From Escherichia coli phage NG_A1, in the sequence record LC788705.1: a DNA stretch of 64,000 nt; one strand, 5' to 3'. The position numbers and the translations under genes were made by a program. The notes under the pieces were generated by a model. It was not told where the DNA came from, made no database searches, and saw only the letters and a list, made by a program, of their open reading frames with translations. Numbering within the stretch: the first letter of the stretch is position 1; every line of letters begins with the position of its first letter. Below, piece after piece: positions 2,671-64,000 of this stretch.

Positions 2671-3152
2671 TATTTAATTAAGTCCTCAACAGATGCATGA
2701 TGTAGCCACGGCTCAAATAAACCAATTACGATTTCCATGTCTTTCTTATTTAACACCATATGGGTACGACTCATTAAGTTGTCAACCATCTGGTCTGAGC
2801 TATCCAAAGCTATTAACCACTGTCCTCTGTCTTTCTTGAATATTAATGCAGGTTTGGAGTTCATCTGCTCACCTTCACGTGAGCACTGCTGCCACCACTT
2901 CTCTAGAGTGGATTCACCAACATTAAATAAATTACTTGATAATGCGTCATCTTTATACCACTTAACTTCGAAGCAGTATTTACTAATGTGTCCACTTTGT
3001 GGTGGAAGGTAGATGTCACCCTTCAATCCGTGGCTCTGGCCAAAAGCACCAGAACCAGGAACACGTTCCCACTCAAGACCCGTACGTTCACGTAAAATAT
3101 CTCTTACCTGATATTCACCACGTTTACCTTTCTCTCTACTATCTACAGCCAT
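2670..3152 (-). CDS. Putative Holliday junction resolvase-like nuclease (Hjc/PD-(D/E)xK type)
   Basis: 160 aa; N-terminal REKGKRGEYQVRDIL...GSGAFG...KGDIYL...FEVKWYK pattern. Confidence 0.45.
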   Translation of the reverse strand: MAVDSREKGKRGEYQVRDILRERTGLEWERVPGSGAFGQSHGLKGDIYLPPQSGHISKYCFEVKWYKDDALSSNLFNVGESTLEKWWQQCSREGEQMNSKPALIFKKDRGQWLIALDSSDQMVDNLMSRTHMVLNKKDMEIVIGLFEPWLHHASVEDLIK

Positions 3153-3155
3153 GTT

Positions 3156-4994
3156 TTATTCTAAGTAGGAAAATCCTTCTGCATCTTTTTTGACAGTAAT
3201 CTTATGAGCTAATGGATGCGTATGCCCATGAGAAACAATGATAGAATTTAGACTTTCTTCCTCATTTAATAGCTCAACGAGAGTATCAAGTCCTTTCGTA
3301 TCAATAAAGCTAATTACTTCATCAAGGAATAGAAGATTAATATTAACTTTACTAATAGATGTTAACAGCATCCGAATAGCTAACAGGGTTGCTAGATTAA
3401 TTCGACTTTGCTGACCAGTAGAGCAGTTTTCCATACTGGTACGGTTTCCATCATTGAAGATTACTACTTGTAATTTAGTTTCATCTAGTTCAAATCCAAG
3501 TGCGAATTTACCGCCAGTCATAATAGAAAGATATTTATTAATTAGCTCTTCAAATACTTTCACACTATGCTCTAGTTTATATCCAACCAGATTTTTCAAT
3601 GCAGCAATTAGAATATCGAGATCAGCAACAGCTTCTGATACTCCATCCAGTTTGGAAGTAATCTCAGACATTTCTGCCTCAGCTTTCTCAATCTGTTCTA
3701 GTTTCGCCTTATATTTTGCATTGGCTAACTCAATATTTGCATTATGTTCTTTAGCAATTGCAACCTTAGAACGTCCATCAGCTATTTCCTGTTCTAATTG
3801 TCGGATTTGCACCTGTAGGATTTGCACATTGAGTTCTTCAAAAGAAGCATCACTCATTGAATTTTTGAACTCGTCTCTAGCTACCACTGCCTTATCCAAA
3901 GCATCCTTTGCTCTAGTATACGCAACGTACTCAAGTTGTTCCTTCTTCAACTGTTCTAGCTTAGCTTCAAGAGATTGCTTCTCTTTGAACAGAGGATCAT
4001 ATTCTACTCTAGCCATATCCATTGCTTTTTGAGCAGTAGTTGTATCCAGGTGAGTACCACAAGTAGGGCATTCAGTATTTGAAGCCTCTTGCTTGAACTT
4101 CTGATAACGTTTCTTAACTTCGCTCGCACGTGAGGTCACAATCGTTAGGTCACGCGTAACACTCGAGATCTCTTCATTTTGGTCGGTGGGCGCGGGCAAA
4201 TTTTTGAAAGGTTCGAAAGATTGTTCGGCAACTTGTACAGCTTTGTCCAAATTACGCAACTTAGTAATATTAGCCTCTTGAGACTTGGCTAATGCCGCCT
4301 TAATTTTCGATTCAGTAAGTTCTTGTGCTAATGGCTCTTCATCAAACTCCGGTACTTCTACAGGTTCCTGCAAAGTTCCTAGATTATTTTTCCCATTAAG
4401 GATTTTCGTAATTACAGCCATCTGGCCCTGCAAATTATTTAAGGTATTTGCTATTTCTTTACGGTCGGCCTTAATAGTTTCCGACATTTCTTTGTATTGC
4501 TCTTGATTGAACAAGTTAACAAGAAACGCTTTACGTGTTGCATCCGTTGCTTTTAGAAAGTCTAGGTTGGAACCCACTGATTGATAAATCAGTTTGGTGA
4601 ATGTTTGAAAGTCACCACCCATAATCTCTTCAATCATCTTGTATGTTTGGGTTGCAGTATGCCCGCTAATATCTTCCCCATTCTTAATCAACGTTACTTT
4701 AGCAGTTGACTTGACAACTTTATGCAGCTCATACTCATCATCATCTTTTGAAAAGTAAGCGTGCATATCGTATTCTTTCTTGGGGGCATTCCAAGAGAAT
4801 AATGCATCTTTCTTAATACCACGTGAGTTCTTGTTATAAAACAATTCCTCGATAACCGTAGCGATGGTGGATTTCCCTAGCCCATTGCCACCAATTAGTT
4901 GAGTAACGGGATTCTTATCGAAATGAATTACGATGTCCTTACCGTAAGACATAACGTTACTAAATTTTAGTGTCTTAATTGTAATCTTTGACAT
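3156..4994 (-). CDS. SbcC/Rad50-like ATPase
   Basis: Walker A GGNGLGKST near N-terminus, long coiled coil, CPTCG zinc hook, C-terminal ABC signature; start moved to MSKITIK (track start 5075 would overlap SbcD by 100 nt). Confidence 0.8.
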   Translation of the reverse strand: MSKITIKTLKFSNVMSYGKDIVIHFDKNPVTQLIGGNGLGKSTIATVIEELFYNKNSRGIKKDALFSWNAPKKEYDMHAYFSKDDDEYELHKVVKSTAKVTLIKNGEDISGHTATQTYKMIEEIMGGDFQTFTKLIYQSVGSNLDFLKATDATRKAFLVNLFNQEQYKEMSETIKADRKEIANTLNNLQGQMAVITKILNGKNNLGTLQEPVEVPEFDEEPLAQELTESKIKAALAKSQEANITKLRNLDKAVQVAEQSFEPFKNLPAPTDQNEEISSVTRDLTIVTSRASEVKKRYQKFKQEASNTECPTCGTHLDTTTAQKAMDMARVEYDPLFKEKQSLEAKLEQLKKEQLEYVAYTRAKDALDKAVVARDEFKNSMSDASFEELNVQILQVQIRQLEQEIADGRSKVAIAKEHNANIELANAKYKAKLEQIEKAEAEMSEITSKLDGVSEAVADLDILIAALKNLVGYKLEHSVKVFEELINKYLSIMTGGKFALGFELDETKLQVVIFNDGNRTSMENCSTGQQSRINLATLLAIRMLLTSISKVNINLLFLDEVISFIDTKGLDTLVELLNEEESLNSIIVSHGHTHPLAHKITVKKDAEGFSYLE

Positions 4995-5952
4995 ATTTCG
5001 CAGCTCTAGCCAAGATTCTATCAATGTCGCCTTGAGATAGCTTCTCGACTTCACGGAAGTAAAGTTCAAGTTCACCTAACATATCAAGATCAACAAGATT
5101 TAACTTAGCGTCTTTAGTAACTCGATGGTTAATCTTCTTATCTAATAAATCAGAGTCTTTGATAGACTTTAATTGAACAACGTCACCAGTAACTTCGTAG
5201 ACTACACGATCATAATCACTAGGTTCCATCTCTTCACCAGCTCCGATTGTTTTACGAATCAGTTGTGGTAAATCACCTAGTTCAATCCATTCTACTTTTA
5301 ATGTGTCGGTATCAATGATAAAGCAACCATTTGTACCTTTTGTGCGTTCTCTATGGAACGATGTAGTTAATGGAGATCCTGGGTAGAGAAGTCTAGTAGA
5401 TCCGATAGTCTGGCTATTAGTATAAGAATGTAAATCGCCAGCAATTACAGTATCATAACAGTTGTACTTAGTTAGATCAATTTCTGGTTTTACATGTGGA
5501 GGGATTTCACCACGAACATGCGTGAAACATAGTTTTGATTCAGCAGGTTTCCACTTGGGTTTATGAATCTCATCATATGGGACAATATCAAATTCAGGGG
5601 AACGATATGGTTTGGTAATTACTTCCCATTTCCCACTAGTTACTTTATTAATAACCCCCGCATAATGATATAGACATGAAATGGTTTTAGTTAACATTTC
5701 ATGATTTCCAGTAAAGATTTTACCTGGATGGTCAAGTCTTGACATGAACTGTTCAAGCAGTTCTATTTCTTCTGACGACGGGTCGGCAACATCAAGTATA
5801 TCACCACCAGCAATATGAAGATCACAGTTATGATTATGGAATATATCATTTAACCGTTCTCCTAGCATCAGGAAGCGACGCTTCTGCCATTCCTTTGGAA
5901 CTTTATCTTGTCCTAGTTTGATATGATGATCAGCACTAAATAATATTCTCAT
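4975..5952 (-). CDS. SbcD/Mre11-like nuclease (metallophosphoesterase)
   Basis: 325 aa; MRILFSADHH...GGDILD...GNHE phosphoesterase motifs. Confidence 0.8.
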   Translation of the reverse strand: MRILFSADHHIKLGQDKVPKEWQKRRFLMLGERLNDIFHNHNCDLHIAGGDILDVADPSSEEIELLEQFMSRLDHPGKIFTGNHEMLTKTISCLYHYAGVINKVTSGKWEVITKPYRSPEFDIVPYDEIHKPKWKPAESKLCFTHVRGEIPPHVKPEIDLTKYNCYDTVIAGDLHSYTNSQTIGSTRLLYPGSPLTTSFHRERTKGTNGCFIIDTDTLKVEWIELGDLPQLIRKTIGAGEEMEPSDYDRVVYEVTGDVVQLKSIKDSDLLDKKINHRVTKDAKLNLVDLDMLGELELYFREVEKLSQGDIDRILARAAKYVKDYN

Positions 5953-5975
5953 ATGTTAAAAAGAAAGGGGCCGAA
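5950..5975 (-). terminator. Rho-independent terminator (minus strand)
   Basis: Hairpin aggggc-cgaa-gcccct with T-run on minus strand. Confidence 0.6.
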
Positions 5976-5988
5976 GCCCCTCTATTTA

Positions 5989-6762
5989 TTAGTCGTCCAG
6001 ATCACTTGCAGCTTCTTGGTCAATACCTTTCTGGGAGCCAGCATTGCTGTTACCAGATTTGGCATCATCATCTTTATTCTCACGACCTTCCATGAAGGCT
6101 TGAATTGCTTCTTTCTGCTCTTCATAGGTAGGAACCGGATAGGTTTGTTCCAGAGAAGGGACTTTCTCAAACTTAATGATGTCGCCATCTTCATCACACA
6201 TAGCTTCACCAATCAGATCTACATCTGCAGCATATTGCTTAGATTCTGCACTGTTAGGATCTTGCAGCTTAATCTGGAACTGCATAGCAGCAATCTGCTG
6301 TACATCATACTCAGTATCGAAACCTTTGCCTTTTTTCTCGATAGAAATATCAATATCAAACGGAGTTGCCAGATTCAGCTGCTTCATGATAGACTGGATG
6401 CCTTTCAGAATAGTAGCTTTGACTTCCATTACTTTCAGTTTGTTATCAGAACGGTCGATAACAAAAGCGATATAGTTTTTCTTCGGTTTCAGCGGAACGC
6501 GATTGCCATCTTTATCCAGCTCTTTCTCAAAGAAGCCCATCTCATGAACCGGATCAGCTTTACCACGAACAAAGCTCTCTTTGTCGCGGTTAAAACGGAG
6601 ACATTCGAAAGGAGCTACGCTACCTTCTTTATTAGTCAGCCAATAGACATAACGTGGAAGAACACCAGAAACGATACGAACACGAGTGATACCGTTGTTG
6701 AACTTCAGGAATTCGATTTTATCGTTAGAACCGCCAGTAGTTTCGCCCCAAGACTTAGCCAT
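5989..6762 (-). CDS. Putative ssDNA-binding protein (acidic C-terminal tail)
   Basis: 257 aa; C-terminus QEAASDLDD; position inside replication module. Confidence 0.4.
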   Translation of the reverse strand: MAKSWGETTGGSNDKIEFLKFNNGITRVRIVSGVLPRYVYWLTNKEGSVAPFECLRFNRDKESFVRGKADPVHEMGFFEKELDKDGNRVPLKPKKNYIAFVIDRSDNKLKVMEVKATILKGIQSIMKQLNLATPFDIDISIEKKGKGFDTEYDVQQIAAMQFQIKLQDPNSAESKQYAADVDLIGEAMCDEDGDIIKFEKVPSLEQTYPVPTYEEQKEAIQAFMEGRENKDDDAKSGNSNAGSQKGIDQEAASDLDD

Positions 6763-7039
6763 ATTTTATTTCCTCTTTAAAGATTAATTTCGATTTGTTA
6801 ATTGCGATTAGTGGGTTAGTGTCGATTACTAAACGTGGTATCCATACTGGAACATATTGTATGTCCAAACTAGGATCGTTTGTAAACTTGTATTCGGCAT
6901 AATTTCGTAGACTTAAAATTCCTAGATATTCTGCCAGTTGTCTATTAGACAATTTATTTGGATTATCAATTATTGTTGATTCATTCAAAATGAATGAGGA
7001 ACCGACCAATAATTGGTGAGCATCAGGCTCTGTAAGCAT
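6755..7039 (-). CDS. Hypothetical protein
   Basis: 94-aa ORF, weak RBS. Confidence 0.3.
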   Translation of the reverse strand: MLTEPDAHQLLVGSSFILNESTIIDNPNKLSNRQLAEYLGILSLRNYAEYKFTNDPSLDIQYVPVWIPRLVIDTNPLIAINKSKLIFKEEIKYG

Positions 7040-7146
7040 TCTTTTGAATAGCTTAATAATTAGGTCGGAATTTCCTCTAGCTAGTAAGTATAGCTTTTCA
7101 TAATCGAAGAATTTAATTTTTGTTTTCTCCTCGAATTTATGTATAT

Positions 7147-7176
7147 ATTATACTAGATTTCGAGAGAATTTAGCAA
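7147..7176 (-). promoter_or_regulatory. Early-type sigma70 promoter (TTGCTA-18-TATAAT)
   Basis: rc reads aaaattttagTTGCTAaattctctcgaaatctagTATAATatatacataaattcgaggag. Confidence 0.6.
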
Positions 7177-7247
7177 CTAAAATTTTTATTTTTCTGCTTC
7201 GGACTTTCTTATCAATCCGAAACTTTCTCTCTCAAATTTATGTATAT

Positions 7248-7276
7248 ATTATACATCATTTATGAGCTGTTGCCAA
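7248..7276 (-). promoter_or_regulatory. Early-type promoter (TTGGCA-17-TATAAT), tandem with the 7147 promoter
   Basis: rc reads TTGGCAacagctcataaatgatgTATAATatatacataaatttgagagag; -35 lies in the 3' end of the helicase gene. Confidence 0.55.
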
Positions 7277-8612
7277 ATGCAATTTTAGCTAATTGAACTG
7301 CTTTCTCCGGAGTCATAGTAATAGTTTTCCACCCGTTGTTACGATACACTGCCATACGTCCAGAAGCCTGTCTTAGTCCAGTGCCACCTTTCATAATTAG
7401 ATCTACAACAATAGGGTCGAGTTTGCCCTCGACAATACGTTGAACACGGCCTGCAAGCTGTTCAATGAGAGATTCATTATTAATGAGGCTTCCCATTATT
7501 AAACAAGACAGCTCATTAAGGGAAATGCCTTCAGAGAAGATACTTTGAGCTGCTGCAAGTACACAAGGCCCACCTTTTGCTATATCTTCCTGAATTTTTA
7601 ATCGATCATCAAGTGGGGTTGCGCCAATAATCTCATAGATTATGACTCCTCGCTGAGATAATGCTTCTAGTACTGTTTGGATTAACTCTGTTCTATCACT
7701 TACAATGAGTACTTTATGTCCCATATTCACATATAAATGTGCTAGGTTTATAATAGTCTCTCGATATTCGGGATGGTTATACACATCATTAGCACGTAAT
7801 GCCCACGGTACGTTTTGGTTTCCTGATAGCTCAACAGGCACGGAGTACCTATGGATTGTAGGTGCAACAGTATTATTAACCGGTGGGCTAAATATCTTAT
7901 ATCCAAAGAAATCTTTGAACATAACTTGTAAACCATCTTTTCGTTTTAGCGTACCGGATAGTCCAATTTTATAGCGAGCACATGATATTTCTAGGAAGTT
8001 AGTGAAAGTTGTAGCCACACAATGGTGAACTTCATCAACTATAACAGTACCGAATACTTTAGAAAGATTATTCGCATGTTTATTCACTGTTTGAATATTA
8101 CTGACCACAATTGGTGGATCAATATTGTATTTTCCAGAACCTATGATACCTGGTTCAAACCCAAACCATTTACGAACTTCTGCCGCCCACATTTCACGAA
8201 TAGATGTGTTGGTACAAATTACCAAAGTTTTCTGGCCAAATTTATACGCAAGTGCCAGGGCTAGGATAGTTTTGCCAAATCCAGGCTTACCATTAATAAT
8301 ACAGGTATCATCGCACTCTTCATATATTGGGAGCTGGTCTTCTTCACGCAGCTTGAACTTAGGTCTTGGTATATCTACTGGAGCTAATGTGCGTTTATCG
8401 ACTAATTCGTATTTTACTCCTTTAGCATCTAGTAAATCCAGACGCGTGATAGGAATCCACTTAATCTCTTTGGCAACAACACCACTATTCTTATACATAA
8501 TAGGGTATTTACTAGTCATTGTCTCAATGTGATAAGTGGTTTGTTTACTACAATAATCCCAAAGTTCATCATCGGGCTTGAAATAGGCTTTATTAGATAT
8601 AACAACCTTCAT
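7260..8612 (-). CDS. SF2 DEAD/DEAH-box helicase (T5 D10-like)
   Basis: 450 aa; Walker A GKPGFGKT, DEVHH box, helicase C motifs. Confidence 0.8.
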   Translation of the reverse strand: MKVVISNKAYFKPDDELWDYCSKQTTYHIETMTSKYPIMYKNSGVVAKEIKWIPITRLDLLDAKGVKYELVDKRTLAPVDIPRPKFKLREEDQLPIYEECDDTCIINGKPGFGKTILALALAYKFGQKTLVICTNTSIREMWAAEVRKWFGFEPGIIGSGKYNIDPPIVVSNIQTVNKHANNLSKVFGTVIVDEVHHCVATTFTNFLEISCARYKIGLSGTLKRKDGLQVMFKDFFGYKIFSPPVNNTVAPTIHRYSVPVELSGNQNVPWALRANDVYNHPEYRETIINLAHLYVNMGHKVLIVSDRTELIQTVLEALSQRGVIIYEIIGATPLDDRLKIQEDIAKGGPCVLAAAQSIFSEGISLNELSCLIMGSLINNESLIEQLAGRVQRIVEGKLDPIVVDLIMKGGTGLRQASGRMAVYRNNGWKTITMTPEKAVQLAKIAFGNSS

Positions 8613-9106
8613 AATTTTATTCTAAGTCTAGGAATTTCAGGCTCCTCTTGATGGACTTGGTAAATAACAGGGCTATTATTTACCAGAATATAGCTTATAT
8701 AAGCTGGAACATAGGATAATACAAATGGATATGGAACTTTAGCTACATAGCATTGGTATTTTCCGTTGTAAATTCTAGCTGAATGCAAAACTTTAGAGGT
8801 GACAACATCATAAAACGTAGTTTTCTTCCAGTTAATAAGATTTCCATCAGAATCTATAAATTGGCTACGCTTTGACCCAACTAATTGAGACAACATGGAT
8901 ATTCTGCCCCTAATAGGATAGAGCTTATATGGTAATTCTTTCCGTTTCTCAAATAGAATAAGCCTACGTTGAGAAAAAGTGCCAGGCAACTTCCTGTTAT
9001 CTAGTACATATTTATTATATCTTGTTGTAATTACGGAATAATCACCTTCTTGCTCAATTGATACAAAAGCCCGTAAAGCATATACGGGCAATTTGAAATC
9101 AAGCAC
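8609..9106 (-). CDS. Hypothetical protein
   Basis: 165-aa ORF translationally coupled between polymerase and helicase. Confidence 0.5.
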   Translation of the reverse strand: MLDFKLPVYALRAFVSIEQEGDYSVITTRYNKYVLDNRKLPGTFSQRRLILFEKRKELPYKLYPIRGRISMLSQLVGSKRSQFIDSDGNLINWKKTTFYDVVTSKVLHSARIYNGKYQCYVAKVPYPFVLSYVPAYISYILVNNSPVIYQVHQEEPEIPRLRIKL

Positions 9107-11666
9107 CGAGAATCCTTCTCACGTTATCCAAATCTTTACATACAGCAATAAACTTATCATCCTTGTATTTGCTATGATCTGGATGCTCTTTATCCATTGC
9201 AGCTAGTTTCTTATACTCGAATTCTGCATCAAGTAATACACCCTTGACATAACGAGTATATTCATCATCATCAATACAAGCGATTGATGGGTGCTGTTTC
9301 TTCATCTTACCACAAGAGTAGTCGCGAGAACCTCCAGCTTCAGAATCTGAATCAATACCAATCGGACAGCCAGGAATACTAATACCGCGGTCTTTCTGAA
9401 TATTACGAATCAGGATTTCATTGTATTGGTCGATCAAATCCTCACGAACAATAGCAACTACGGAGTCGTGAACCAGCATAACAATCTTCATCTCTTGTTC
9501 TAGGCCAAGAGAAATGATCTCATTATCTGCATCTACAGCACCTAAAAGGAGACTATCAGAAGAAGCAGACTGAATGATTGCGTTAAATCCAGAACGGATT
9601 TCTTCACCTTGAACACCACGGTCTTCGGAGTGGATATTATGCAGACGACGTTTACGACCAAAGTGACTATAGATAAATCCATGATTCTTGATCTGATCAT
9701 GGCACTTATCAATCCAACGCTTAAGCTGCGGGAACTGACCGAAGTAAGTTTCTATATACTCTTTAGCATCTGCAACCGTACACTCTACAAACGGTTCGCC
9801 TGTCTTAGCAGCCTGTTCCAGAAGAGCTTCGTTAACAGAATGAGCTACTTTAGCTGGGCCAGAACCATACAGAATACCAAAGGTGATTGCTTTAGCTGCT
9901 TGACGCAGAGCTGGGAATAACTTTTTAACATCACGAGGCTCGCATTGGAGCTTAAATACCATGTGTGCGATGTTAGAGTGGAAGTCGGGGTATTTATCTG
10001 GTTCATTTCTCATGTTGATAAATACTTGTTGCATATTTCTATCACCAGATAGAACAGCAGCATAATAAACTTCCGCAGTTGTTAAGTCCCATGCAATTAC
10101 ACGATACCCGGGAGGAGCTACTACACAACCCTTGATAATAGATTCATCACGAGGTAACTGTTGCAGGTTCAGTTTACCAGAAGAACTCAGACGACCAGAA
10201 GTAGTCATATGTTCATGGAAACCAGTACGAATGCAACCATCTGCATCAATACTCAGAAGAATCTTCTCAACATAAGTAGAGATCAGCTTAGTCAGCTTAC
10301 GAATCTCTAGTAGAGTCTTAGCAATTGGATGCTGCGTAGACAATTCGTTCAGAGCTTCTGCATCTGTAGAGTCTGCTCCAGTATCCGTCAATTTACCTGT
10401 TGGAGTTAAGCCAACATAATCAAATAGAAGAACACGGAGTTGTTTAACAGAGTTTGGGTTAAACGCTTCGTTCTGATCTTTCTCTAGCTGAACGACTTCT
10501 GGATAAGTATACAGTTTTTCACGAGCTTTATTCAGATTATGGGTTAACTGGTACTGAGCTTCTTTTAAACGATCAATAGAAATAGGTACACCACGATCCT
10601 CAACACGCTGGAGAAATACACAACCAGGCATTAGGACATCATAATACAGACTACAAAGTTTTTCATTCTTCTCAATTTTTGGTAAGAAGAAGTTGTGCAA
10701 ACGTATGGTAGCATCGGTATCTTTCGCAGCGTAAGGCCACATAATATCAAACGGAATTAAATCATAGGTGAAATCTTCTTTCTTGATTTTATGTGCTTTG
10801 CAGTAATCCTCTTTGAACTTATCTAGTTCGAAGTCATAGTCACCCATATCGGTATACTTCATTGCTAGAGATTTCAAGCCATGAGTACCACGACGTTCAT
10901 CTAGAACATAATGCTGCAACATAGTATCATGGAGCCTGCGTTCTTTATGCGCTTTATCAAAAGTAAGTCCCAGATGGTACTTATAAAAGTGCATATCAAA
11001 CTTCAGGTTGTGAAAAACAATAGTGTGGTTTTCACTATCCAGAATTTTCTGGAGATAATATACTGCAACCTCTGTGAGACAATCAGAATCGATATATACA
11101 CCCTGATACTCTTGGTGAGACATAGAAACACCAAGCAGATAACCATCTCGACAGTATAGTGCTGAGGTTTCGGAGTCGAATGCGACAGGTCCGATAACCA
11201 TATTATACACCATCTTGATATATTCTTCCGCCTCGTCAGGGTCAGTAATAGGACGGTAATCACCAGCTTTTGCAACCTTCTCACGACCATTGATAATATC
11301 GTGGATATTTTCTACTGTTGCATCGAAAACTGGTTTCATTTCAGGTTTAAAGTGTAACTGGGCTGGGCTGATACTCGCAATCCAGTTAGCATATCCATTA
11401 TACTCTACACGTTTACCAGTATAGTCACCAATGCCTTTCTTACCTGCGAAATACAGGAAAGGTTCAGCACCTACTAGTATAACAAAATCGTAATCATTCG
11501 GATCAAATGGGTTTTCTGGTGTTCCAATAGTAATGTGCTTTTTAAGCAAACGACCAGATAACTTCTCATTACACATATGGAATACATCAACTTCCTCGCC
11601 GTATAGCTGGAAATGTTTATCGTAACGAGTGTTGTTTAGGGCTTTATCAACTACTGCGATTTTCAA
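9099..11666 (-). CDS. DNA polymerase, family A (T5 polymerase-like) with 3'-5' exonuclease domain
   Basis: 855 aa; exo motif FDSETSAL, Pol A motifs (RxxAKxITFGILYG, HDS...). Confidence 0.95.
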   Translation of the reverse strand: MKIAVVDKALNNTRYDKHFQLYGEEVDVFHMCNEKLSGRLLKKHITIGTPENPFDPNDYDFVILVGAEPFLYFAGKKGIGDYTGKRVEYNGYANWIASISPAQLHFKPEMKPVFDATVENIHDIINGREKVAKAGDYRPITDPDEAEEYIKMVYNMVIGPVAFDSETSALYCRDGYLLGVSMSHQEYQGVYIDSDCLTEVAVYYLQKILDSENHTIVFHNLKFDMHFYKYHLGLTFDKAHKERRLHDTMLQHYVLDERRGTHGLKSLAMKYTDMGDYDFELDKFKEDYCKAHKIKKEDFTYDLIPFDIMWPYAAKDTDATIRLHNFFLPKIEKNEKLCSLYYDVLMPGCVFLQRVEDRGVPISIDRLKEAQYQLTHNLNKAREKLYTYPEVVQLEKDQNEAFNPNSVKQLRVLLFDYVGLTPTGKLTDTGADSTDAEALNELSTQHPIAKTLLEIRKLTKLISTYVEKILLSIDADGCIRTGFHEHMTTSGRLSSSGKLNLQQLPRDESIIKGCVVAPPGYRVIAWDLTTAEVYYAAVLSGDRNMQQVFINMRNEPDKYPDFHSNIAHMVFKLQCEPRDVKKLFPALRQAAKAITFGILYGSGPAKVAHSVNEALLEQAAKTGEPFVECTVADAKEYIETYFGQFPQLKRWIDKCHDQIKNHGFIYSHFGRKRRLHNIHSEDRGVQGEEIRSGFNAIIQSASSDSLLLGAVDADNEIISLGLEQEMKIVMLVHDSVVAIVREDLIDQYNEILIRNIQKDRGISIPGCPIGIDSDSEAGGSRDYSCGKMKKQHPSIACIDDDEYTRYVKGVLLDAEFEYKKLAAMDKEHPDHSKYKDDKFIAVCKDLDNVRRILGA

Positions 11667-51367: not shown

Positions 51368-52119
51368 TGTCAGTATTAGTCGGTTTACATGGTGAAGCTG
51401 GTTCGGGAAAAGATACCGTTGCAAAATTAATTATCGATTGGTGTAATGACACGTATCCAACGTGTTTACCCCGTCGTTATAGTTTTGCTAAGCCCGTTTA
51501 TGAACTTGCATCCGTAATCCTCGGTGTAACTCCGGAGTTTCTAGGAGAGCGCAGGGGAAAAGAGGTTGACCAATGGTTTACGGTCACACAATCTCAATTG
51601 GAGCGAGCCAGAGATGTGTGGTTTAAGTATGGTATCGATAAGTTTGAAGACTTCTCGTACGTTTGGCCTATTTTTGAGGAAAAATATCTTAATCCTCAAC
51701 AACTTATCTCAGAGAGTAAAAAAGACGGACTTTATAGTTTATTTATTTCTCCGAGAAAAATGTTACAGCTCGTAGGGACAGAGCTAGGAAGGCAGCTGGT
51801 GCATGAACGCATTTGGCTCATAATTCTGGAGCAATCCATCGCTAAAGACGACCCAGATGTCGCCGTAATAACAGATGTTAGATTCCCCAATGAAGGAGAG
51901 TTACTCAGAGAAACAAACCATTTAGATATGGATTCTTTGATAGTAAATGTAGTACCCGCTGAGCAGAAGTTCACTATTAAATCAGATCATCCATCTGAAA
52001 GTGGTATTCCTGCAAAATATATTACTCACGAATTAGTTAATAAATTCGATGGTATCAATAACCTTAAACTAGAAGTTTATAACTTCTGTGACTTAGAGCT
52101 AGAACCACTAGTTGGATAA
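51367..52119 (+). CDS. Deoxynucleoside monophosphate kinase-like P-loop kinase
   Basis: 250 aa; Walker A GLHGEAGSGKDT. Confidence 0.65.
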   Translation: MSVLVGLHGEAGSGKDTVAKLIIDWCNDTYPTCLPRRYSFAKPVYELASVILGVTPEFLGERRGKEVDQWFTVTQSQLERARDVWFKYGIDKFEDFSYVWPIFEEKYLNPQQLISESKKDGLYSLFISPRKMLQLVGTELGRQLVHERIWLIILEQSIAKDDPDVAVITDVRFPNEGELLRETNHLDMDSLIVNVVPAEQKFTIKSDHPSESGIPAKYITHELVNKFDGINNLKLEVYNFCDLELEPLVG

Positions 52120-60485: not shown

Positions 60486-60670
60486 TGGAAACTCTTTTTC
60501 TTTTAATGCTCGTAGGTTCTCTGTTACTAATACTAGCACTTCTACTAATCTGCAATATTCTTAATAATAAGAATCTAGAGCTAAAGTGTGAGAACCAAAT
60601 CCTTAACCGTGAACTTAAACAATATAATCTAGCAGCCTATAAACTGTTAGACAAACTGGAGAATAAATAA
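60485..60670 (+). CDS. Small membrane protein
   Basis: 61 aa, TM helix, coupled to previous. Confidence 0.4.
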   Translation: METLFLLMLVGSLLLILALLLICNILNNKNLELKCENQILNRELKQYNLAAYKLLDKLENK

Positions 60671-61272
60671 TGACTTTTAATGCGCAACAATCTATTCAAG
60701 TAGTGCCAGATCATGAACTGAACACATGGGATTATAGCTTTAAAGATTTAACCGCTACTGTACAATTTAAATCTATGAAGCTAACATTTGCACACACTGA
60801 CCTTAGAGCATGTAAAGGTCTTGAGGATAAGCTCGAAGATGCTCGCAAGATTTTTGGTAAGGCTCGCATCCCAGCTGATAATCTAATTAACGCATTAATC
60901 GATGCAGGGTACAAACTTGTGAAGACTGAGGTGAACCGCCCTAGTACTCCAGTGACTATTAGAGATCCGTGGCAGTCAGGGACAATCGCAATGCTGAATA
61001 AATCATCGGATTTGCACAATGTTCCTTGTGGGGGTGTGATAAGTAGTACGCAGTCATATAAGTTTGGGGAAGATTACGGCCCTTCTGTACAGTTGAAACA
61101 TACTCAAGAAGCTTTTGAATCTGATATGCGAAGCGTAGCACCTGCGGATGCTGAAGGTTTTAGAAGTCCCATCTATGTTACTCACTTTAATAATCTTAGG
61201 CCTGGGAGTATAAATGATGCTATCCTTGAAGCGTTGGGAGCTGCTATTAATGAAGATAAGAGGGGTAATTAA
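60670..61272 (+). CDS. Hypothetical protein
   Basis: 200-aa ORF. Confidence 0.5.
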   Translation: MTFNAQQSIQVVPDHELNTWDYSFKDLTATVQFKSMKLTFAHTDLRACKGLEDKLEDARKIFGKARIPADNLINALIDAGYKLVKTEVNRPSTPVTIRDPWQSGTIAMLNKSSDLHNVPCGGVISSTQSYKFGEDYGPSVQLKHTQEAFESDMRSVAPADAEGFRSPIYVTHFNNLRPGSINDAILEALGAAINEDKRGN

Positions 61273-61997
61273 TGAGTATAAAAAAGAATTTAGCAGAGAT
61301 TATTAAGTTAGCTAGAGCTTGTAATGGAAAATGTGTTTCTCAGCTTAATGAACTAGAAGCACATGCAGTAGCATTTTGTGCAGAGTTTTATCCTGCATAC
61401 CTTAATGCTAGTGGGCAACCTAAATATAATAAGGATGCCGAAGAAGTTACGTTAGCTCCTTCATATATTAGCTTGCGTCGTTTAATTCAAACCGTTGATC
61501 CTACTATTAAAGGATTCTCAGCAGATTCATTCCACGTCTTTGCAGATAAAGAACTCCCGTATTTTAAAGAAGGAAATGCAAAGTCATGTTTAGAATGTTA
61601 TCCTAATATACTGATGATTCCTCAAAAGCAATGTAAATACGATCATCTTCCTAGACTTACAAAGAAAGTAGCACCACCTTATTCTTCTCTATCTGAATTA
61701 AAGCTAGGAATTGTATCTACACTTGCGCAGATTCATCTAAGTATAGTTGACGACTCAACAACATCTAACCCTATTCTAGATGCTGCTCACTTTGAAATTT
61801 TACGTGATCCTGAACAAGCTAGAAAAGTTGCTAAGTCTGTTAAGTTTGATATATCAACAATTCTTGACACTAAACAAGAAACTAGACCTAGAGGAAGTGT
61901 AGATTATTCTGCGCTAAATTCCGAGTCATCTTACTTAGCAACATTCCTTTTCATGGCGTCAAAAGGGGTTATTCTAAAGGTTAATAAAGATGGATGA
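61272..61997 (+). CDS. Hypothetical protein
   Basis: 241-aa ORF. Confidence 0.5.
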   Translation: MSIKKNLAEIIKLARACNGKCVSQLNELEAHAVAFCAEFYPAYLNASGQPKYNKDAEEVTLAPSYISLRRLIQTVDPTIKGFSADSFHVFADKELPYFKEGNAKSCLECYPNILMIPQKQCKYDHLPRLTKKVAPPYSSLSELKLGIVSTLAQIHLSIVDDSTTSNPILDAAHFEILRDPEQARKVAKSVKFDISTILDTKQETRPRGSVDYSALNSESSYLATFLFMASKGVILKVNKDG

Positions 61998-62718
61998 TTT
62001 ACGTGCTGAAATTAATAAAAAGTTACGAGAGGAAGCCCGGAGGTTTCCTCTTAAAAACTTTTTGAAGTCAAATGGCTCTACTAATATAACGAAGATTAGG
62101 CAACTTCACCCTGACTTCCAACAAGAGGCCTTAAACCTTATCTTTATTAGGAAAGCTTTAAAAGTCCAGAAAGAAGAGTATGGGTATGAAAGAGTTAATT
62201 ATAAGACAGCCAATCAGTTAGTAGAGATATGGTGCTATAAACATAAAGGATACTTTATGCAAACTGCTAGATCTCACCTAGATGGGCACGGTTGTTTACA
62301 ATGTGCTAGGGAAAGCAACCTAAATACACCTATCGAGAAACCGGAGGTAGAAGAAGATGTTCAGTCCCCCACATATCTCTATATCTTCTCTAATAAAGAT
62401 CAGTCTAGGAAGAAATTAAAGACAAAGATTGGGGTTTCTAGAGAGCCACATCAAAGGTTTAAGAATCTAGAGTATGATAAATTGCGTGTGCCGGGTTTTG
62501 AAGATATGGAAGTATTTGGTATCTACCAGTATAAGAAAGGATCGAAAGAACTCGCTTACAAAATAGAACACCAAGCACATAAATTTTTCGAGAATAAATT
62601 TGCTAACCATTATAAATTCGATGGAGCAAAAGAGATATTCAACATTAAAGCTGTAGAGGCAGAAGAATATCTATTAAGTCAAGGTTGCATAAAAATTTAC
62701 CCAACTCCAAACTCATGA
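61990..62718 (+). CDS. Zinc-ribbon + GIY-YIG/T5orf172-like protein (putative homing endonuclease), paralog of 29083..29754
   Basis: 242 aa; GHGCLQC ribbon then YLYIFSNKD...KIGVSREPHQRFKNL. Confidence 0.45.
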   Translation: MDDLRAEINKKLREEARRFPLKNFLKSNGSTNITKIRQLHPDFQQEALNLIFIRKALKVQKEEYGYERVNYKTANQLVEIWCYKHKGYFMQTARSHLDGHGCLQCARESNLNTPIEKPEVEEDVQSPTYLYIFSNKDQSRKKLKTKIGVSREPHQRFKNLEYDKLRVPGFEDMEVFGIYQYKKGSKELAYKIEHQAHKFFENKFANHYKFDGAKEIFNIKAVEAEEYLLSQGCIKIYPTPNS

Positions 62719-62745
62719 CAAAAATTTAAAAGTAACGAAATCTGC

Positions 62746-62775
62746 TTGACATTCGTGAGAATAATGTGTTATAAT
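62746..62775 (+). promoter_or_regulatory. Consensus sigma70 promoter (TTGACA-18-TATAAT) reading into the terminal repeat region
   Basis: ctgcTTGACAttcgtgagaataatgtgtTATAATaatc; no ORF of 60 aa or more for about 700 bp downstream. Confidence 0.55.
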
Positions 62776-63116
62776 AATCTCATAGATTAAAAACATCAAC
62801 TTGTTTTTACCTCTAGGCCGTAGATTTACATCATTCCTCGTAGGAAAACACTTGATGACGGTTCTGCTCGCAGGTTCTCGTCAATTGTTCTTCCACACCG
62901 AGACTTAGGAGGATGTATCAAATCGCACGCGCCTAGAGGGGCTAACTCTCATGAAATGGGGGTATATTTACTTTTAAATAACTAAAAAATATTTAAAGGC
63001 AATATCTGTGTTCAAGATGATACACCTGTTGCCGCTCTCCATCTCTAGGATCACATACACTTTCCTAGAAACTCCAGAGTTCTCACTAAATACTCACGAA
63101 ATATCACACTTCTAGT

Positions 63117-63196
63117 GGGCGGTTCTCCTAAGTTTCTAGGAACATATACTAGGCGGTTTAATACAGGGCGGTTAATATAGGGCGGTTAATATAGGG
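63117..63196. repeat. Five copies of GGGCGGTT, four of them as exact 14-bp-period tandem repeats (unit GGGCGGTTAATATA)
   Basis: GGGCGGTT at 63117, 63142 (ggcggtt), 63156, 63170, 63184. Confidence 0.85.
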
Positions 63197-63236
63197 CGGT
63201 TATTTCTAGGAGACATTTTTCCAAAACACATTTCCA

Positions 63237-63836
63237 GAAATTACTATCGGATTTGCACATTGTGTTTCTAGAAATTTATGGTCGGATTTGCACAAACGCC
63301 TAAGTTTTTAGGAACTCTTACTCCCCTGAAAATGGCAGCATTATTTCGGGCCGAAGGCCCATAATTGCCTGAGTTTTTAGAGCCACAAGAATTTTCACTT
63401 GTCAAGCTATTTTGCCACCTTTAGCAAATAAAATTTTACTTTATCTCCACTAATCTCAAATTAACCCAAATCTTCTCAACTCTTCCCCAAAAACGCAGCA
63501 AATCAGGCGTTGCACGCCACCCATGCTGCTCCTCCAGTTTCTCCCCTTATTTTCTCTCGCTCTCTCAACTTCTCCCCAAACCTATACAATCACATACCCT
63601 CCAATCGAAGTCACAAAAATCTTGTCGGATTCGCACATCTTAATCCTAGAAAAACCGTGTCGGATTTGCACATACCCCACAGGATTCGAACGCAGTTCGT
63701 GATTGCTGGAGTTTTTAGGAAAATTCATTGTCGGATTTGCACACTATAAAAATTTTTCGGGTCGGATTTGCACACTACCAAAAATTGTCGGATTCGCACA
63801 TACACGCCCGCACGTAACACCCGTGGAGCAATGTCG
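63237..63836. repeat. Eight same-orientation copies of the 14-bp motif GTCGGATT(T/C)GCACA
   Basis: Copies at 63237, 63271, 63614, 63649, 63720, 63751, 63777, 63823; irregular spacing (26-343 bp). Confidence 0.85.
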
Positions 63837-63841
63837 GATTT

Positions 63842-63859
63842 GCACAAAAGCGCAGGGCA
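63842..63859. repeat. 18-bp perfect palindrome GCAGGGCAATTGCCCTGC
   Basis: gcagggcaa is the reverse complement of ttgccctgc. Confidence 0.85.
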
Positions 63860-63866
63860 ATTGCCC

Positions 63867-64000
63867 TGCTCGCCTGAATGCGAATGATAATGAGAATGAT
63901 TCTCATTTAAAAAGCGGAATGAGAATGATAATAATTCGCATTTAAGAATGGAAGTGAGAATTATTCAGGAAGTGAAACGATTCTCATTTAAAAAGCAGAA
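63867..64000. repeat. Cluster of palindromes and direct repeats at the window edge (GAGAATGATTCTC, ATTCTCATTTAAAAAGC x2, GCGAAT/ATTCGC)
   Basis: tgagaatgattctca palindrome at 63881-63895; attctcatttaaaaagc at about 63888 and 63969; array may continue beyond the window. Confidence 0.7.

What the first reader, a model, noticed from the sequence alone, without database searches (positions are those of the whole stretch)
62746..63860. ORF-poor terminal region with an array of GTCGGATT(T/C)GCACA motifs, GGGCGGTTAATATA tandem repeats and a consensus promoter reading into it
After the last gene (ends 62718) there is over 1.2 kb with no convincing ORF. It holds a near-consensus sigma70 promoter (62746..62775), recurring TTCTAG(G/A)AA-like motifs, five GGGCGGTT copies (four in exact 14-bp tandem) and eight same-orientation copies of a 14-bp motif at irregular spacing, ending in an 18-bp perfect palindrome. 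This is the architecture of a protein-binding array such as an origin, a partition/packaging site or an injection-stop-like region. The motif does not match the DnaA box TTATCCACA. A transcribed non-coding RNA is also possible.
Basis: partly seen in the sequence, partly recalled or inferred. Interest (0 to 1): 0.6.

Follow-up and report, generated by a model that had tools for sequence, protein, structure and literature searches.

The report
T5-type injection-stop and terminal-repeat junction
This gene-free stretch is the already described, repeat-filled inner boundary of the long terminal repeat of a T5-like phage (the "injection stop signal" region), so the array itself is not new, but just outside it sits a strongly predicted, apparently unannotated structured RNA gene.

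Summary
The window is a T5-like phage (Tequintavirus, 92% identical to DaisyDussoix) in reverse orientation to T5. Region 62746-63860 is homologous (about 87%) to T5 9534-10608. That is T5 "Repeat Region 3": the annotated injection stop signal (iss), the inner end of the left terminal repeat, and its unique flank.

The 14-bp motif is Davison's "DRD" repeat. It has 8 copies here and 9 in T5, all on the nicked strand. It is conserved in Escherichia, Salmonella, Klebsiella and Serratia phages, and the two-copy array pattern I scanned for was not found in 185,579 bacterial and archaeal genomes.

- The terminal-repeat end maps to 63379|63380, inside the array.
- The homologue of the T5 7.9% nick maps to 63849|63850, directly after the last motif copy.

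The region is already known. Its mechanism is still untested experimentally.

Two points go beyond the literature I could read. First, the consensus promoter drives a ~190-nt structured RNA (62782-62975). It occurs in at least 9 types whose sequences are unrelated but whose architecture is the same, with compensatory changes and no Rfam match. Second, the array straddles the physical genome end, so a packaging-start (terminase) role is at least as plausible as injection stop. An origin role is unlikely.

The parts
62746..62775 (+). Sigma-70 promoter: TTGACA, 18 nt, TG-n-TATAAT. It is conserved in position in all relatives examined, including T5, Klebsiella phage IME260 and probably Serratia phage Kamaji.
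   Evidence: 12/12 matches plus TG. (conserved promoter upstream of every RNA type; the Kamaji promoter was read by eye).
62782..62975 (+). Candidate structured non-coding RNA of about 190 nt. Parts: hairpin H2 (62789-62808), a ~130-nt rod closed by ACCUCUAGGC/GCCUAGAGG (62809-62941), a 3' hairpin with the conserved CUCUCAUGAAAUGGGGG (62945-62963), and a U-rich tail (62964-62975). The start is predicted from the -10 box, not mapped.
   Evidence: MFE -64.6 kcal/mol, z -5.6, 0/200 shuffles. Nine sequence types share the architecture, z -4.2 to -6.7. Covariation: 16 pairs changed on both sides, against 10.5+/-1.9 in shuffles and 1-4 in slid controls. A covariance model built from other types hits exactly 62782-62975 at 54 bits, and it is the only hit in the window. 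No Rfam, tRNA or tmRNA match.
62960..63010 (.). AT-rich tract (22% GC) after the RNA.
63011..63037 (+). Block TTCAAGATGATACACCTGTTGCCGCTC. It is conserved downstream of RNA types A-F, T5 included. I used it as the right-hand anchor of the variable RNA cassette. I did not look for it in types G-I. Function unknown.
63065..63077 (-). Copy of the CYKRAGTTTYTAG motif (the only inverted copy).
63117..63202 (+). GGCGGTT repeats: an isolated GGGCGGTT at 63117, then a 14-bp tandem array at 63152-63202 (3.6 copies). Relatives carry 2-5 same-orientation copies at this position.
63127..63139 (+). Copy of the CYKRAGTTTYTAG motif.
63246..63294 (+). Two DRD motif copies (63246-63259 ATCGGATTTGCACA; 63281-63294 GTCGGATTTGCACA). 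They lie OUTSIDE the terminal repeat, in unique DNA.
63299..63311 (+). Copy of the CYKRAGTTTYTAG motif.
63348..63360 (.). Conserved GC hairpin GGGCC-GAA-GGCCC, about 20 bp outside the repeat end.
63368..63389 (+). Terminal-repeat end. The homologue of the T5/BF23 right genome terminus lies between 63379 and 63380 (CCTGAGTTTTTA|GAGCCACAAG), inside a CYKRAGTTTYTAG copy. From 63380 onward the window is terminal repeat.
   Evidence: T5 LTR end 10219. The BF23 PhageTerm end (9743) and the Spc35 end fall at the same homologous base; the SIA3lw annotated boundary is within 1 bp. Several genome records end at query position 681 = window 63380.
63441..63623 (+). Strand-asymmetric tract (68 C against 13 G on the + strand, with TCTCAACT(C)TTCCCCAAA repeats) between the repeat end and the main motif cluster.
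63624..63846 (+). Six DRD copies inside the terminal repeat (63624, 63659, 63730, 63761, 63787, 63833). Spacings are 35, 71, 31, 26 and 46 bp.
   Evidence: Equivalent copies in T5 at 9752-9974.
63706..63718 (+). Copy of the CYKRAGTTTYTAG motif, between DRD copies.
63814..63856 (+). Signature of the T5 major 7.9% single-strand interruption: GTAAC, 27 nt (holding the last DRD copy), then A|GCGCAGG. The predicted nick lies between 63849 and 63850 on the + strand.
   Evidence: T5 feature 9748/9749(-). Alignment. Shared context of the four T5 nick sites. The pattern has 3 window hits against 0.05 expected.
63852..63869 (.). 18-bp perfect palindrome GCAGGGCAATTGCCCTGC overlapping the nick's GCGC. 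Identical in T5, BF23 and Spc35.
63877..64000 (+). AATGAGAATGAT-type repeats (by position Davison's DRE2, my assignment), cut by the window end. They contain Fur-box-like sites. The DnaA-box inverted repeat IRD'-spacer-IRC' lies beyond the window.

Best explanation
IDENTITY (near certain). This is the window phage's copy of the T5-family 'Repeat Region 3'. That is the non-coding junction between the first early genes and the inner end of the ~10-kb terminal repeat, and in T5 it carries the annotation 'injection stop signal'.

It has three modules:

(a) A conserved early sigma-70 promoter. Rather than simply reading into the array, it first transcribes a ~190-nt, rod-shaped structured RNA (62782-62975) that ends in a hairpin plus U-tract.

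(b) The terminal-repeat end (63379|63380), where the right genome terminus is cut. The cut lies inside one of five local copies of CYKRAGTTTYTAG. It is flanked outside by GGCGGTT tandem repeats and two DRD copies, and inside by a C-rich tract and six DRD copies.

(c) The homologue of the 7.9% nick (63849|63850), immediately after the last DRD copy and overlapping an 18-bp palindrome.

MECHANISM (inferred). I take the 14-bp DRD copies to be sites for one sequence-specific DNA-binding protein that binds as a monomer or as subunits of a ring. The motif is asymmetric, and every copy points the same way relative to the direction in which DNA travels. The protein is probably phage-encoded.

My preferred role is to mark the right-hand repeat boundary on replicated concatemers for the terminase. 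The reasoning is:
- The left end of T5 enters the cell first, so the right end should be packaged first.
- Packaging must therefore start at this cut.
- The six-copy cluster lies on the side of the cut that is packaged first, like lambda cosB.

The same sequence in the virion's left repeat lies where first-step transfer pauses. The stop itself needs no new protein synthesis. I assign it mainly to elements further left, namely the paired DnaA boxes and the DRE repeats, or to the nick-proximal edge of the array.

Shown here: homology, conservation, polarity, and position relative to the physical end and the nick. Inferred: protein binding, the identity of the binder, and the role.
For: Homology and synteny with T5 iss / LTR end.

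DRD motif:
- 8 copies here, 9 in the T5 array and 3 elsewhere in T5, all on one strand.
- Sharp 14-bp core with uninformative flanks in 151 unique instances.
- Retained as a same-orientation array in Tequintavirus, Epseptimavirus, Sugarlandvirus (Klebsiella IME260, 11 copies) and Serratia phage Kamaji (6 copies listed by the repeat finder, plus one more by eye). The surrounding DNA no longer aligns in the distant ones.
- The two-copy pattern is absent from 185,579 bacterial and archaeal genomes.

Repeat end:
- It maps to the same homologous base in T5, BF23 (PhageTerm) and Spc35, and within 1 bp in SIA3lw. In T5 that leaves 6 DRD copies inside and 3 outside; BF23 and Spc35 split the array in the same way.
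- The cut-site motif GTGGCTCTAAAAA is present even in IME260.

Literature:
- Injection starts from the left end, ejection is complete in vitro with FhuA alone, and the stop occurs without protein synthesis (Davison 2020).
- No role has yet been assigned to these repeats, and experiments are lacking.

From memory, not tested here: terminase small subunits commonly recognise arrays of repeats next to the cut, and T7 has short-repeat arrays flanking its terminal repeat.
Against: - No binding data exist for any protein.
- The terminase genes are about 100 kb away in T5, not next to the site.
- The left-end cut site shows no DRD and no clear similarity to this junction.
- The nearest DRD copies are 86 bp (outside) and 245 bp (inside) from the cut, farther than lambda cosB is from cosN.
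- Extra conserved DRD copies lie inside two genes, which a pure packaging site does not predict.
- The array begins exactly where first-step transfer is measured to stop (7.9%). The only published interpretation of the region is injection stop.
- That the right end is packaged first is inferred from the order of entry. I found no direct statement of it.
Confidence: 0.4

Rival explanations
1. The DRD array is itself the working part of the injection stop / restart signal. In this reading a pre-existing host or virion protein, or later the pre-early A1/A2 proteins, binds the successive same-orientation sites on the first DNA of the second-step segment. That binding either holds the DNA at the envelope or ratchets it in once A1/A2 are made.
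For: - T5 annotates 9140-10149 as iss, and this covers the six inner DRD copies.
- The array starts 3 nt from the 7.9% nick, where first-step DNA ends.
- The array spans 600-740 bp (window 63246-63846; T5 9752-10490). By my recollection of T5 tail dimensions, that is roughly the DNA length that would fill the tail and envelope channel during the pause.
- The motif polarity is fixed relative to the direction of entry.
- The motif is invariant across phages of four host genera.
- Davison argues that the conservation of this region reflects iss function.
Against: - The stop needs no new protein synthesis, and ejection is complete in vitro. A phage pre-early protein therefore cannot cause the stop.
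- If transfer halts at 7.9%, most of the array is still outside the cytoplasm and out of reach of cytoplasmic proteins.
- The first-step length may simply reflect breakage at the nick.
- Two to three copies lie beyond the repeat end, and others lie in genes 1.8 kb and about 69 kb away (T5 coordinates).
- No experiment exists.
Confidence: 0.3
2. The DRD copies are low-affinity DnaA boxes. They would extend the DnaA-box clusters of the neighbouring inverted repeats, so that membrane-associated host DnaA oligomerises along the incoming DNA. This extends Davison's DnaA model.
For: - The 3' nine bases ATTTGCACA match the relaxed box TTWTNCACA at 8/9.
- The variant GTCGGTTTTGCACA in Spc35, Seabear and Kamaji matches it 9/9.
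- Perfect paired DnaA boxes lie about 250-350 bp further into the repeat in T5, Spc35 and Kamaji.
- All copies share one orientation, as low-affinity sites do within one half of oriC (my recollection).
Against: - The most conserved part of the motif includes GTCGG, which is not part of a DnaA box.
- The one tolerated variable position (T in 75% of instances, C in 21%) is box position 4, which is invariant T in the consensus.
- Position 1 is A in 96% of instances.
- Spacings of 26-343 bp do not resemble the tightly spaced oriC arrays.
- No strict or relaxed DnaA box occurs in window 61501-64000.
Confidence: 0.1
3. The region is a replication origin, or a transcription/nick-primed initiation zone. 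Iteron-like repeats, an AT-rich tract, a strong promoter with a structured primer-like RNA, a site-specific nick and nearby DnaA boxes would cooperate to start DNA synthesis.
For: - Direct repeats in one orientation.
- A 51-bp tract of 22% GC right after the RNA.
- A consensus promoter transcribing toward it.
- A nick whose 3'-OH would prime leftward synthesis, given that the T5 polymerase annotation notes strand displacement from nicks.
- DnaA boxes nearby in relatives.
Against: - T5 origins were mapped near the centre of the genome, and replication functions are not expressed at the first-step stage (Davison).
- Repeat spacing is irregular rather than iteron-like.
- No initiator gene is adjacent. 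The neighbours are a mobile T5orf172 nuclease-like gene and proteins of unknown function.
- The AT-rich tract is about 240 bp from the nearest DRD copy.
Confidence: 0.07
4. The long inverted repeat downstream of the promoter acts as DNA rather than as an RNA product. It could be a cruciform, or a hairpin formed in single-stranded DNA during replication or repeat duplication.
For: - Any inverted repeat gives the same covariation signal in DNA.
- In two of the eight types tested for this (D and H), sense and antisense strands fold equally well.
- It sits about 400-600 bp from a site of DNA cutting.
Against: - A consensus promoter sits at a fixed distance upstream in every type I examined for one.
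- Six of eight types fold better on the transcribed strand, by 2.8 to 12 kcal/mol, owing to G-U pairs.
- A conserved 3' hairpin plus U-tract follows, and in type F it is a good intrinsic terminator.
Confidence: 0.15

Closest known systems
Bacteriophage T5 'Repeat Region 3' / injection stop signal (iss): NC_005859 misc_feature 9140-10149 and LTR end 10219. Per Davison's 2020 preprint, described in a 1987 study (his ref. 6), in the complete-genome paper of Wang et al. (2005), and in his own earlier and 2020 work.
   Same: - Homologous sequence (86.6% identity over T5 9534-10608).
- Same order of elements: DRE repeats, palindrome and nick, six DRD copies, G/C-skewed tract, repeat end, GC hairpin, two or three DRD copies, AACCGCC tandem repeats.
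- Same synteny with the pre-early genes on one side and T5.018/019 homologues on the other.
   Different: - 8 DRD copies instead of 9, with small indels.
- A T5orf172 nuclease-like gene is inserted next to the region.
- The RNA cassette downstream of the promoter is a different sequence type from T5's.
- The window ends before the DnaA-box inverted repeat.
Terminase recognition sites with repeated binding elements beside the cut: lambda cosB R-sites and cosQ; the T7 short-repeat arrays SRL/SRR flanking the terminal repeat at the concatemer junction. Recalled from memory, not tested here.
   Same: - An array of short same-orientation repeats next to, and on both sides of, the site where the genome end is cut.
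- The larger cluster lies on the side expected to be packaged first.
- A promoter reads toward the junction. T7 packaging is also coupled to transcription at the concatemer junction (recollection).
   Different: - No sequence similarity.
- Distances from the cut are larger (86 and 245 bp).
- Terminase binding is untested.
- The repeat is 10 kb rather than 160 bp.
Iteron / DnaA-box replication origins (oriC, lambda ori, plasmid iteron origins).
   Same: Direct repeats, an AT-rich tract, DnaA boxes in the vicinity, and a promoter reading in.
   Different: - Irregular spacing.
- No adjacent initiator gene.
- The motif is not a DnaA box.
- T5 origins were mapped elsewhere.
For the RNA: phi29 packaging RNA (pRNA) and 6S RNA. 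Both are ~170-200-nt RNAs whose structure is conserved while the sequence diverges. Recalled from memory.
   Same: - Size of about 150-215 nt.
- Architecture conserved while rod sequences are only ~50% identical between types (the level my global alignment gives for unrelated sequence).
- Like pRNA, it is encoded next to a genome terminus and packaging start.
   Different: - No Rfam hit to any family, 6S included.
- No large central bubble as in 6S.
- T5 has a conventional two-subunit terminase, and no RNA requirement for packaging is known.
- Function untested.

Membership tests
T5-family iss / Repeat Region 3 | Lies at the inner end of the long terminal repeat, between the pre-early operon and the first early genes | tested here: met
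   Synteny in SIA3lw, DaisyDussoix and T5. The repeat end maps to 63379|63380.
T5-family iss / Repeat Region 3 | Sequence homology to T5 ~9330-10409 | tested here: met
   86.6% identity to T5 9534-10608. Features under the match: LTR, iss, major interruption. Alignment.
T5-family iss / Repeat Region 3 | Series of about nine DRD direct repeats in one orientation | tested here: met
   8 copies here, 9 in T5. I matched them to Davison's 'nine DRD repeats' by count and position, because the figure is not held.
T5-family iss / Repeat Region 3 | Major single-strand interruption with Pu|GCGC consensus beside a palindrome | tested here: met
   The sequence signature is conserved at 63814-63856. Whether the DNA is physically nicked cannot be tested here.
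T5-family iss / Repeat Region 3 | IRD'-spacer-IRC' inverted repeat with paired DnaA boxes | not testable with these tools
   It lies beyond the window end (T5 ~9412-9520). It is present in T5, Spc35 and Kamaji.
T5-family iss / Repeat Region 3 | Actually halts DNA transfer at about 8% | not testable with these tools
   This needs infection experiments. Papers state that functional studies are lacking.
Terminase recognition (pac/cos-type) site | Directly adjoins the site where the genome end is cut | tested here: met
   The BF23 PhageTerm end and the T5 and Spc35 ends fall at the same homologous base (SIA3lw within 1 bp), within the array.
Terminase recognition (pac/cos-type) site | Bound by the small terminase subunit and required for packaging | not testable with these tools
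The terminase genes are not in the window.
Iteron-type replication origin | Regularly phased iterons with an adjacent unwinding element | tested here: not met
   Spacings are 35, 343, 35, 71, 31, 26 and 46 bp. The AT-rich tract is about 240 bp away.
Iteron-type replication origin | Cognate initiator gene adjacent, and origin mapped there | tested here: not met
   The neighbours are a T5orf172 nuclease-like gene and proteins of unknown function. T5 origins are reported near the genome centre.
DnaA box | Matches TT(A/T)TNCACA | tested here: not met
   No match in 61501-64000. The DRD 9-mer is 8/9 or 7/9. Position 1 is A in 96% of instances, and position 4 is C in 21%.
Any Rfam RNA family (including 6S, tmRNA, tRNA-like) | Covariance-model score at or above the family's gathering threshold | tested here: not met
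   The best scores are 15.8-17.2 bits against thresholds of 39-57 bits. Nothing relevant at E<=1 over 62000-64000. ARAGORN finds nothing.
Fur box (for the flanking DRE repeats) | Match to GATAATGATAATCATTATC | tested here: inconclusive
   16/19 at 63886-63904 (0.01 expected) and 15/19 at 63921-63939. Similar sites lie at the same place in T5, BF23, Spc35, DaisyDussoix and IME260, but not in all relatives. Binding is untested.

The most novel reading that the evidence does not exclude
T5-like phages of Escherichia, Salmonella, Klebsiella and Serratia all encode a previously unannotated, abundantly transcribed ~150-215-nt RNA just outside the terminal repeat. Its promoter, 5' hairpin, rod architecture and 3' CUCUCAUGAAAUGGGGG hairpin are kept, while the rod sequence is swapped like a cassette between close relatives.

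Such an RNA could act in cis or trans at the repeat junction. Options include marking or processing the packaging start, a pRNA-like or R-loop role, or insulating the repeat from early transcription. Alternatively it could be a hypervariable anti-defence decoy.

Separately, the DRD array may be the long-sought cis element that a terminase or transfer protein reads. That would make the 50-year-old two-step-transfer and end-formation problem directly testable.
Probability: 0.4. Interest if true: 0.65.

Novelty: already known. Interest (0 to 1): 0.4.

Why it matters
The two-step DNA transfer of T5 and the way its 10-kb terminal repeats are cut and duplicated have been unexplained since the 1960s. 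[quoted passage not shown]

This analysis supplies concrete handles for experiments:
- a 14-bp polar motif, with its exact copies on both sides of the physical genome end;
- the cut-site motif;
- the extended nick signature.

With the T5 engineering tools now available, these are defined targets for mutagenesis and protein pull-down.

If the structured RNA is confirmed, it would be a new family-wide phage non-coding RNA with an unusual pattern of cassette variation.

Tried and rejected
- **Rfam, tRNA, tmRNA.** No credible match at relaxed thresholds on 62000-64000 and 62760-63000, or with ARAGORN.
- **Small ORFs.** The 30-80-aa ORFs overlap the repeats. A 1-nt deletion in Spc35 falls inside the 35-aa ORF in the RNA region, and the tiny ATG-AAA-TGG-GGG ORF is absent from types B and C.
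- **DnaA boxes.** None in the window part.
- **Motif arrays in cellular genomes.** The two-copy DRD pattern gave no hit in 185,579 species genomes.
- **Literature search for the motif.** No paper in the library holds the full 14-mer in either orientation.
- **Similarity between the two repeat boundaries of T5.** No meaningful similarity. AACCGCC lies ~36 bp from the left end in T5 and BF23 but not in IME260, so I dropped this lead.
- **Antisense targets of the RNA in the window.** Only chance-level short matches. A 14-nt match at 7629 lies inside what reads as coding sequence with no promoter, not at a second promoter.
- **The small palindrome AATCT-CAT-AGATT right after the -10 box ('H1').** It probably spans the transcription start, and it is absent from types G and H. 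I do not count it as RNA structure.
- **MAFFT/RNAalifold across all types at once.** This failed because the loops shift register. Analysis within groups of types worked.
- **Reach of the covariance model.** The model built from types D-F finds types A, B and F. It does not find T5's type C or the Klebsiella types (G in IME260, H in L080) at E<=1. Those are linked only by synteny, promoter and architecture.
Full report
**1. What the window is**

Megablast of 62700-64000 finds 447 phage records, all T5-like. The best is Escherichia phage DaisyDussoix (92.2% over the whole query).

A more sensitive search places the reverse complement of the region on T5 at 9534-10608 (86.6% identity). The T5 features under the match are 'left terminal repeat', 'injection stop signal (iss)' and 'major DNA single-chain interruption'.

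The T5 RefSeq record annotates the left terminal repeat as 1-10219, iss as 9140-10149, and the nick at 9748/9749 on the minus strand. No gene lies between 9157 and 10936.

The genes beyond the region in relatives are the T5.011-T5.015 pre-early genes on the opposite strand. The window therefore runs in the opposite direction to T5. It ends about 620 bp inside the terminal repeat.

**2. The observation**

- **The 14-bp motif.** GTCGGATTYGCACA has 7 exact copies plus one with A at position 1, all on the + strand. The whole window holds 11 matches at <=2 mismatches against 0.48 expected.
- **The promoter.** It is a perfect TTGACA/TATAAT pair with an extended -10.
- **Corrections.** Only two units of the tandem array are exact GGGCGGTTAATATA. 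There are four exact GGGCGGTT copies, not five. The palindrome lies at 63852-63869, beyond the stated end.

**3. It is a described region**

Davison's 2020 preprint defines 'Repeat Region 3' as T5 9194-10409, overrunning the repeat end by 270 bp. [quoted passage not shown]

T5 has exactly nine copies of the motif at 9752-10490, all on the minus strand. I therefore equate the motif with DRD. This rests on count and position, because the figure itself is not held.

Davison's model rests on eight DnaA boxes in two inverted repeats, and it 'assigns no role' to the other repeats. The 2023 BF23 paper says experimental studies of these sites are lacking. [quoted passage not shown] No paper in the library contains the full 14-mer.

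**4. Anatomy relative to physical landmarks**

*Terminal-repeat end.* The T5 repeat end (10219), the PhageTerm-determined BF23 end (9743) and the Spc35 end all fall at the same homologous base...GTGG(C/A)TC|TAAAAAC.... The SIA3lw annotated boundary is within 1 bp. Several complete-genome records also stop at this position. In the window this is 63379|63380.

The array is therefore split. Two DRD copies (63246, 63281), the GGCGGTT repeats and the promoter/RNA lie in unique DNA. Six DRD copies (63624-63846) lie inside the repeat.

The cut lies inside one copy of a second motif, CYKRAGTTTYTAG. This motif has 6 hits in the window against 0.06 expected. Five are in this region, and the sixth sits immediately upstream of the homologue of the T5 18.5% nick.

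*The nick.* The T5 7.9% nick maps to 63849|63850 on the + strand, 3 nt after the last DRD copy and overlapping the palindrome.

The four annotated T5 nick sites share more than the published Pu|GCGC. Each has GTAAY about 33-36 nt upstream of the nick and GCGC(A)GG at it. The pattern GTAAY-N24-32-R|GCGCRGG finds exactly three sites in the window, against 0.05 expected. All three are on the + strand and at the homologues of the 64.8%, 18.5% and 7.9% nicks.

Seabear's PhageTerm 'repeat end' coincides with the nick site rather than the true end.

**5. Conservation of the motif array**

Same-orientation DRD arrays, followed by GGCGGTT repeats, occur in:
- Tequintavirus (T5, Spc35, BF23);
- Epseptimavirus (saus176N, Seabear);
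- Sugarlandvirus (Klebsiella phage IME260, 11 copies);
- a divergent 122-kb contig;
- Serratia phage Kamaji.

In the distant members the flanking DNA no longer aligns.

From 151 unique instances the motif has a sharp 14-bp core (1.1-2.0 bits per position), flanks below 0.9 bit, and a weak A-run at -8 to -6. The instances were selected by similarity, so the information content of the core is inflated.

A two-copy pattern is absent from 185,579 bacterial and archaeal species genomes.

T5 and the window share three further copies, all in the same orientation. One is in the T5.019 homologue (window 61005). The other two form a pair 15 bp apart in the D13/SbcC-like gene (window 3800 and 3815), about 370 nt from the 64.8% nick.

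**6. The promoter drives a structured RNA**

The promoter is conserved in all relatives examined (in Kamaji it was read by eye). It is followed by a 150-215-nt segment that exists in at least nine sequence types: A = this window, B, C = T5, D, E, F = BF23, G = Klebsiella IME260, H, and I = Serratia Kamaji. In types A-F the segment lies between the promoter and the conserved block TTCAAGATGATACAC.

*Shared architecture.* All types fold the same way: a short hairpin about 8-13 nt into the transcript, a 70-135-nt imperfect rod, then a 3' hairpin and a U-rich tail. In types A, D, E and F the 3' hairpin carries the conserved CUC(U/A)CAUGAAAU(U)GGGGG. MFE z-scores are -4.2 to -6.7, and no shuffle in 200 reaches the native energy. 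Rods of different types are only ~50% identical, which is about what my global alignment gives for unrelated sequence.

*The first hairpin.* It keeps its stem through changes on both strands: AAAAACA/UGUUUUU, AAAACAA/UUGUUUU, ACAAUAA/UUAUUGU, UCAACUA/UAGUUGA and AAACAACAU/AUGUUGUUU.

*Covariation.*
- In the D/E/F alignment, 16 of 54 pairs change on both sides. Shuffles give 10.5+/-1.9 (0/500 reach 16), and slid controls give 1-4. The covariation score is 0.250, against 0.124 in shuffles and <=0.058 in slid controls.
- Within T5-type sequences every stem substitution preserves pairing (99.8% of cells paired). However, the three double changes are shared by the same three sequences, so they may represent a single lineage.

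*Strand.* The transcribed strand folds better than its complement in 6 of 8 types, by 2.8-12 kcal/mol.

*Covariance model.* A model built only from types D-F finds this window's RNA at exactly 62782-62975 (54 bits, E ~1e-11 with rough calibration). This is the only hit in 64 kb. It also finds types B and F, but not types C, G or H.

*No known family.* Rfam 15, ARAGORN and the literature searches give nothing.

*Caveats.* The transcription start is predicted, no expression data were found, and a DNA-level role for the inverted repeat is not excluded.

Downstream, a tract with 68 C against 13 G (63441-63623) would make any read-through RNA C-rich and G-poor.

**7. What it does**

Established facts, taken from Davison's review of the literature:
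- injection starts at the left end;
- the stop at 7.9% occurs without protein synthesis;
- ejection is complete in vitro with FhuA alone;
- restart needs A1 and A2;
- origins map near the genome centre.

From the order of entry I infer that the right end is packaged first. Terminase would then have to start at the repeat's right boundary, which is inside this array, with the six-copy cluster on the first-packaged side.

My preferred reading (0.4) is that DRD is the polar recognition array for the end-forming machinery, probably the small terminase subunit.

The main rival (0.3) is that DRD is the working part of the stop/restart signal. In favour: the array begins at the 7.9% point, its 600-740-bp span is about the length of DNA in the tail and envelope channel, and this is the published attribution. 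Against: most of the array would not yet be in the cytoplasm, and the measured 7.9% may reflect breakage at the nick.

The DnaA-box reading (0.1) fails on the conserved GTCGG, and on the T/C variation at an invariant box position.

The origin reading (0.07) fails on spacing, neighbouring genes and mapped origins.

None of these can be settled without binding and mutant experiments.

**8. Verdict**

The feature is already known, so novelty is low. Interest is moderate, for two reasons: the mechanism is a long-standing open question, and the analysis yields precise, testable elements together with a well-supported candidate for a new phage RNA family.

Noticed in passing
window 63886-63939 (also T5 9653-9718; BF23 L134:888-947; Spc35 L005:1609-1662): The DRE-type repeats just inside the nick carry strong Fur-box-like sites. 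One is 16/19 to GATAATGATAATCATTATC at 63886-63904 (0.01 expected in the window), and one is 15/19 at 63921-63939. Similar sites lie at the same place in T5, BF23, Spc35, DaisyDussoix and IME260, but not in all relatives. Neither Davison's preprint nor the one paper my 'Fur box' plus 'phage T5' search returned links Fur boxes to T5. T5's receptor FhuA belongs to the Fur regulon (my recollection), although BF23 uses BtuB.
   Followed up: partly
window 4156-4196, 51514-51555, 63814-63856 (+ strand); T5 9748, 22336, 39746, 78573: The T5 major nick sites share an extended bipartite context: GTAAY about 27-30 nt upstream, then Pu|GCGC(A)GG. This is longer than the annotated 'NPu|GCGCN' consensus. 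The pattern finds exactly three sites in the window (0.05 expected), all on one strand and at the homologues of the 64.8%, 18.5% and 7.9% nicks. No homologue of the 32.6% nick matched the pattern.
   Followed up: partly
window 3800-3828 (inside ORF 3156-5075, minus strand, D13/SbcC-like) and 61005-61018 (inside ORF 60670-61272): DRD-like copies lie inside coding sequence, in the same orientation as the array. They are conserved in T5 (78935/78950 and 12153) and partly in Spc35, saus176N and Seabear. The D13 pair is 15 bp apart, encodes VQI(L/R)Q repeats on the other strand, and lies about 370 nt from the 64.8% nick. This could be functional sites or a coding coincidence.
   Followed up: partly
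window 61990-62718 (+): The last gene before the region has a T5orf172 / GIY-YIG-like nuclease domain (Pfam PF10544, E 4e-6; PHROG 'endonuclease'). It is absent from Spc35 and saus176N, where the phrog_8993 gene abuts the non-coding region directly. It is therefore a mobile, homing-endonuclease-like insertion next to the RNA promoter.
   Followed up: partly
L007 (Salmonella phage Seabear MK728824) 8522: The PhageTerm-predicted terminal-repeat end in this record falls exactly at the conserved nick site (GCCCTGCGC|TTTTGTGC), not at the T5/BF23-type end. The nick was probably read as a terminus. Repeat annotations in some T5-like records may be about 470 bp short for this reason.
   Followed up: no
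window 63441-63623: Strongly strand-asymmetric tract (68 C against 13 G on the + strand) with TCTCAACT(C)TTCCCCAAA repeats, just inside the repeat end. A similar GGGAG-rich tract is visible at the same place in the divergent 122-kb contig L080. RNA read from the upstream promoter would be C-rich and G-poor (Rho-loading-like). The opposite strand has several G-runs.
   Followed up: no
window 63011-63037: The 27-bp block TTCAAGATGATACACCTGTTGCCGCTC is conserved downstream of RNA types A-F, T5 included, although the RNA cassette upstream of it is replaced. I did not look for it in types G-I. Function unknown.
   Followed up: no
window 63368-63380 and 51532-51544: The same 13-bp motif class, CYKRAGTTTYTAG, holds the terminal-repeat cut (GAGTTTTTA|G). 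It also sits directly upstream of the 18.5% nick (GGAGTTTCTAGGAGA|GCGC). This hints at a shared recognition element for the end-cutting and nicking activities.
   Followed up: partly
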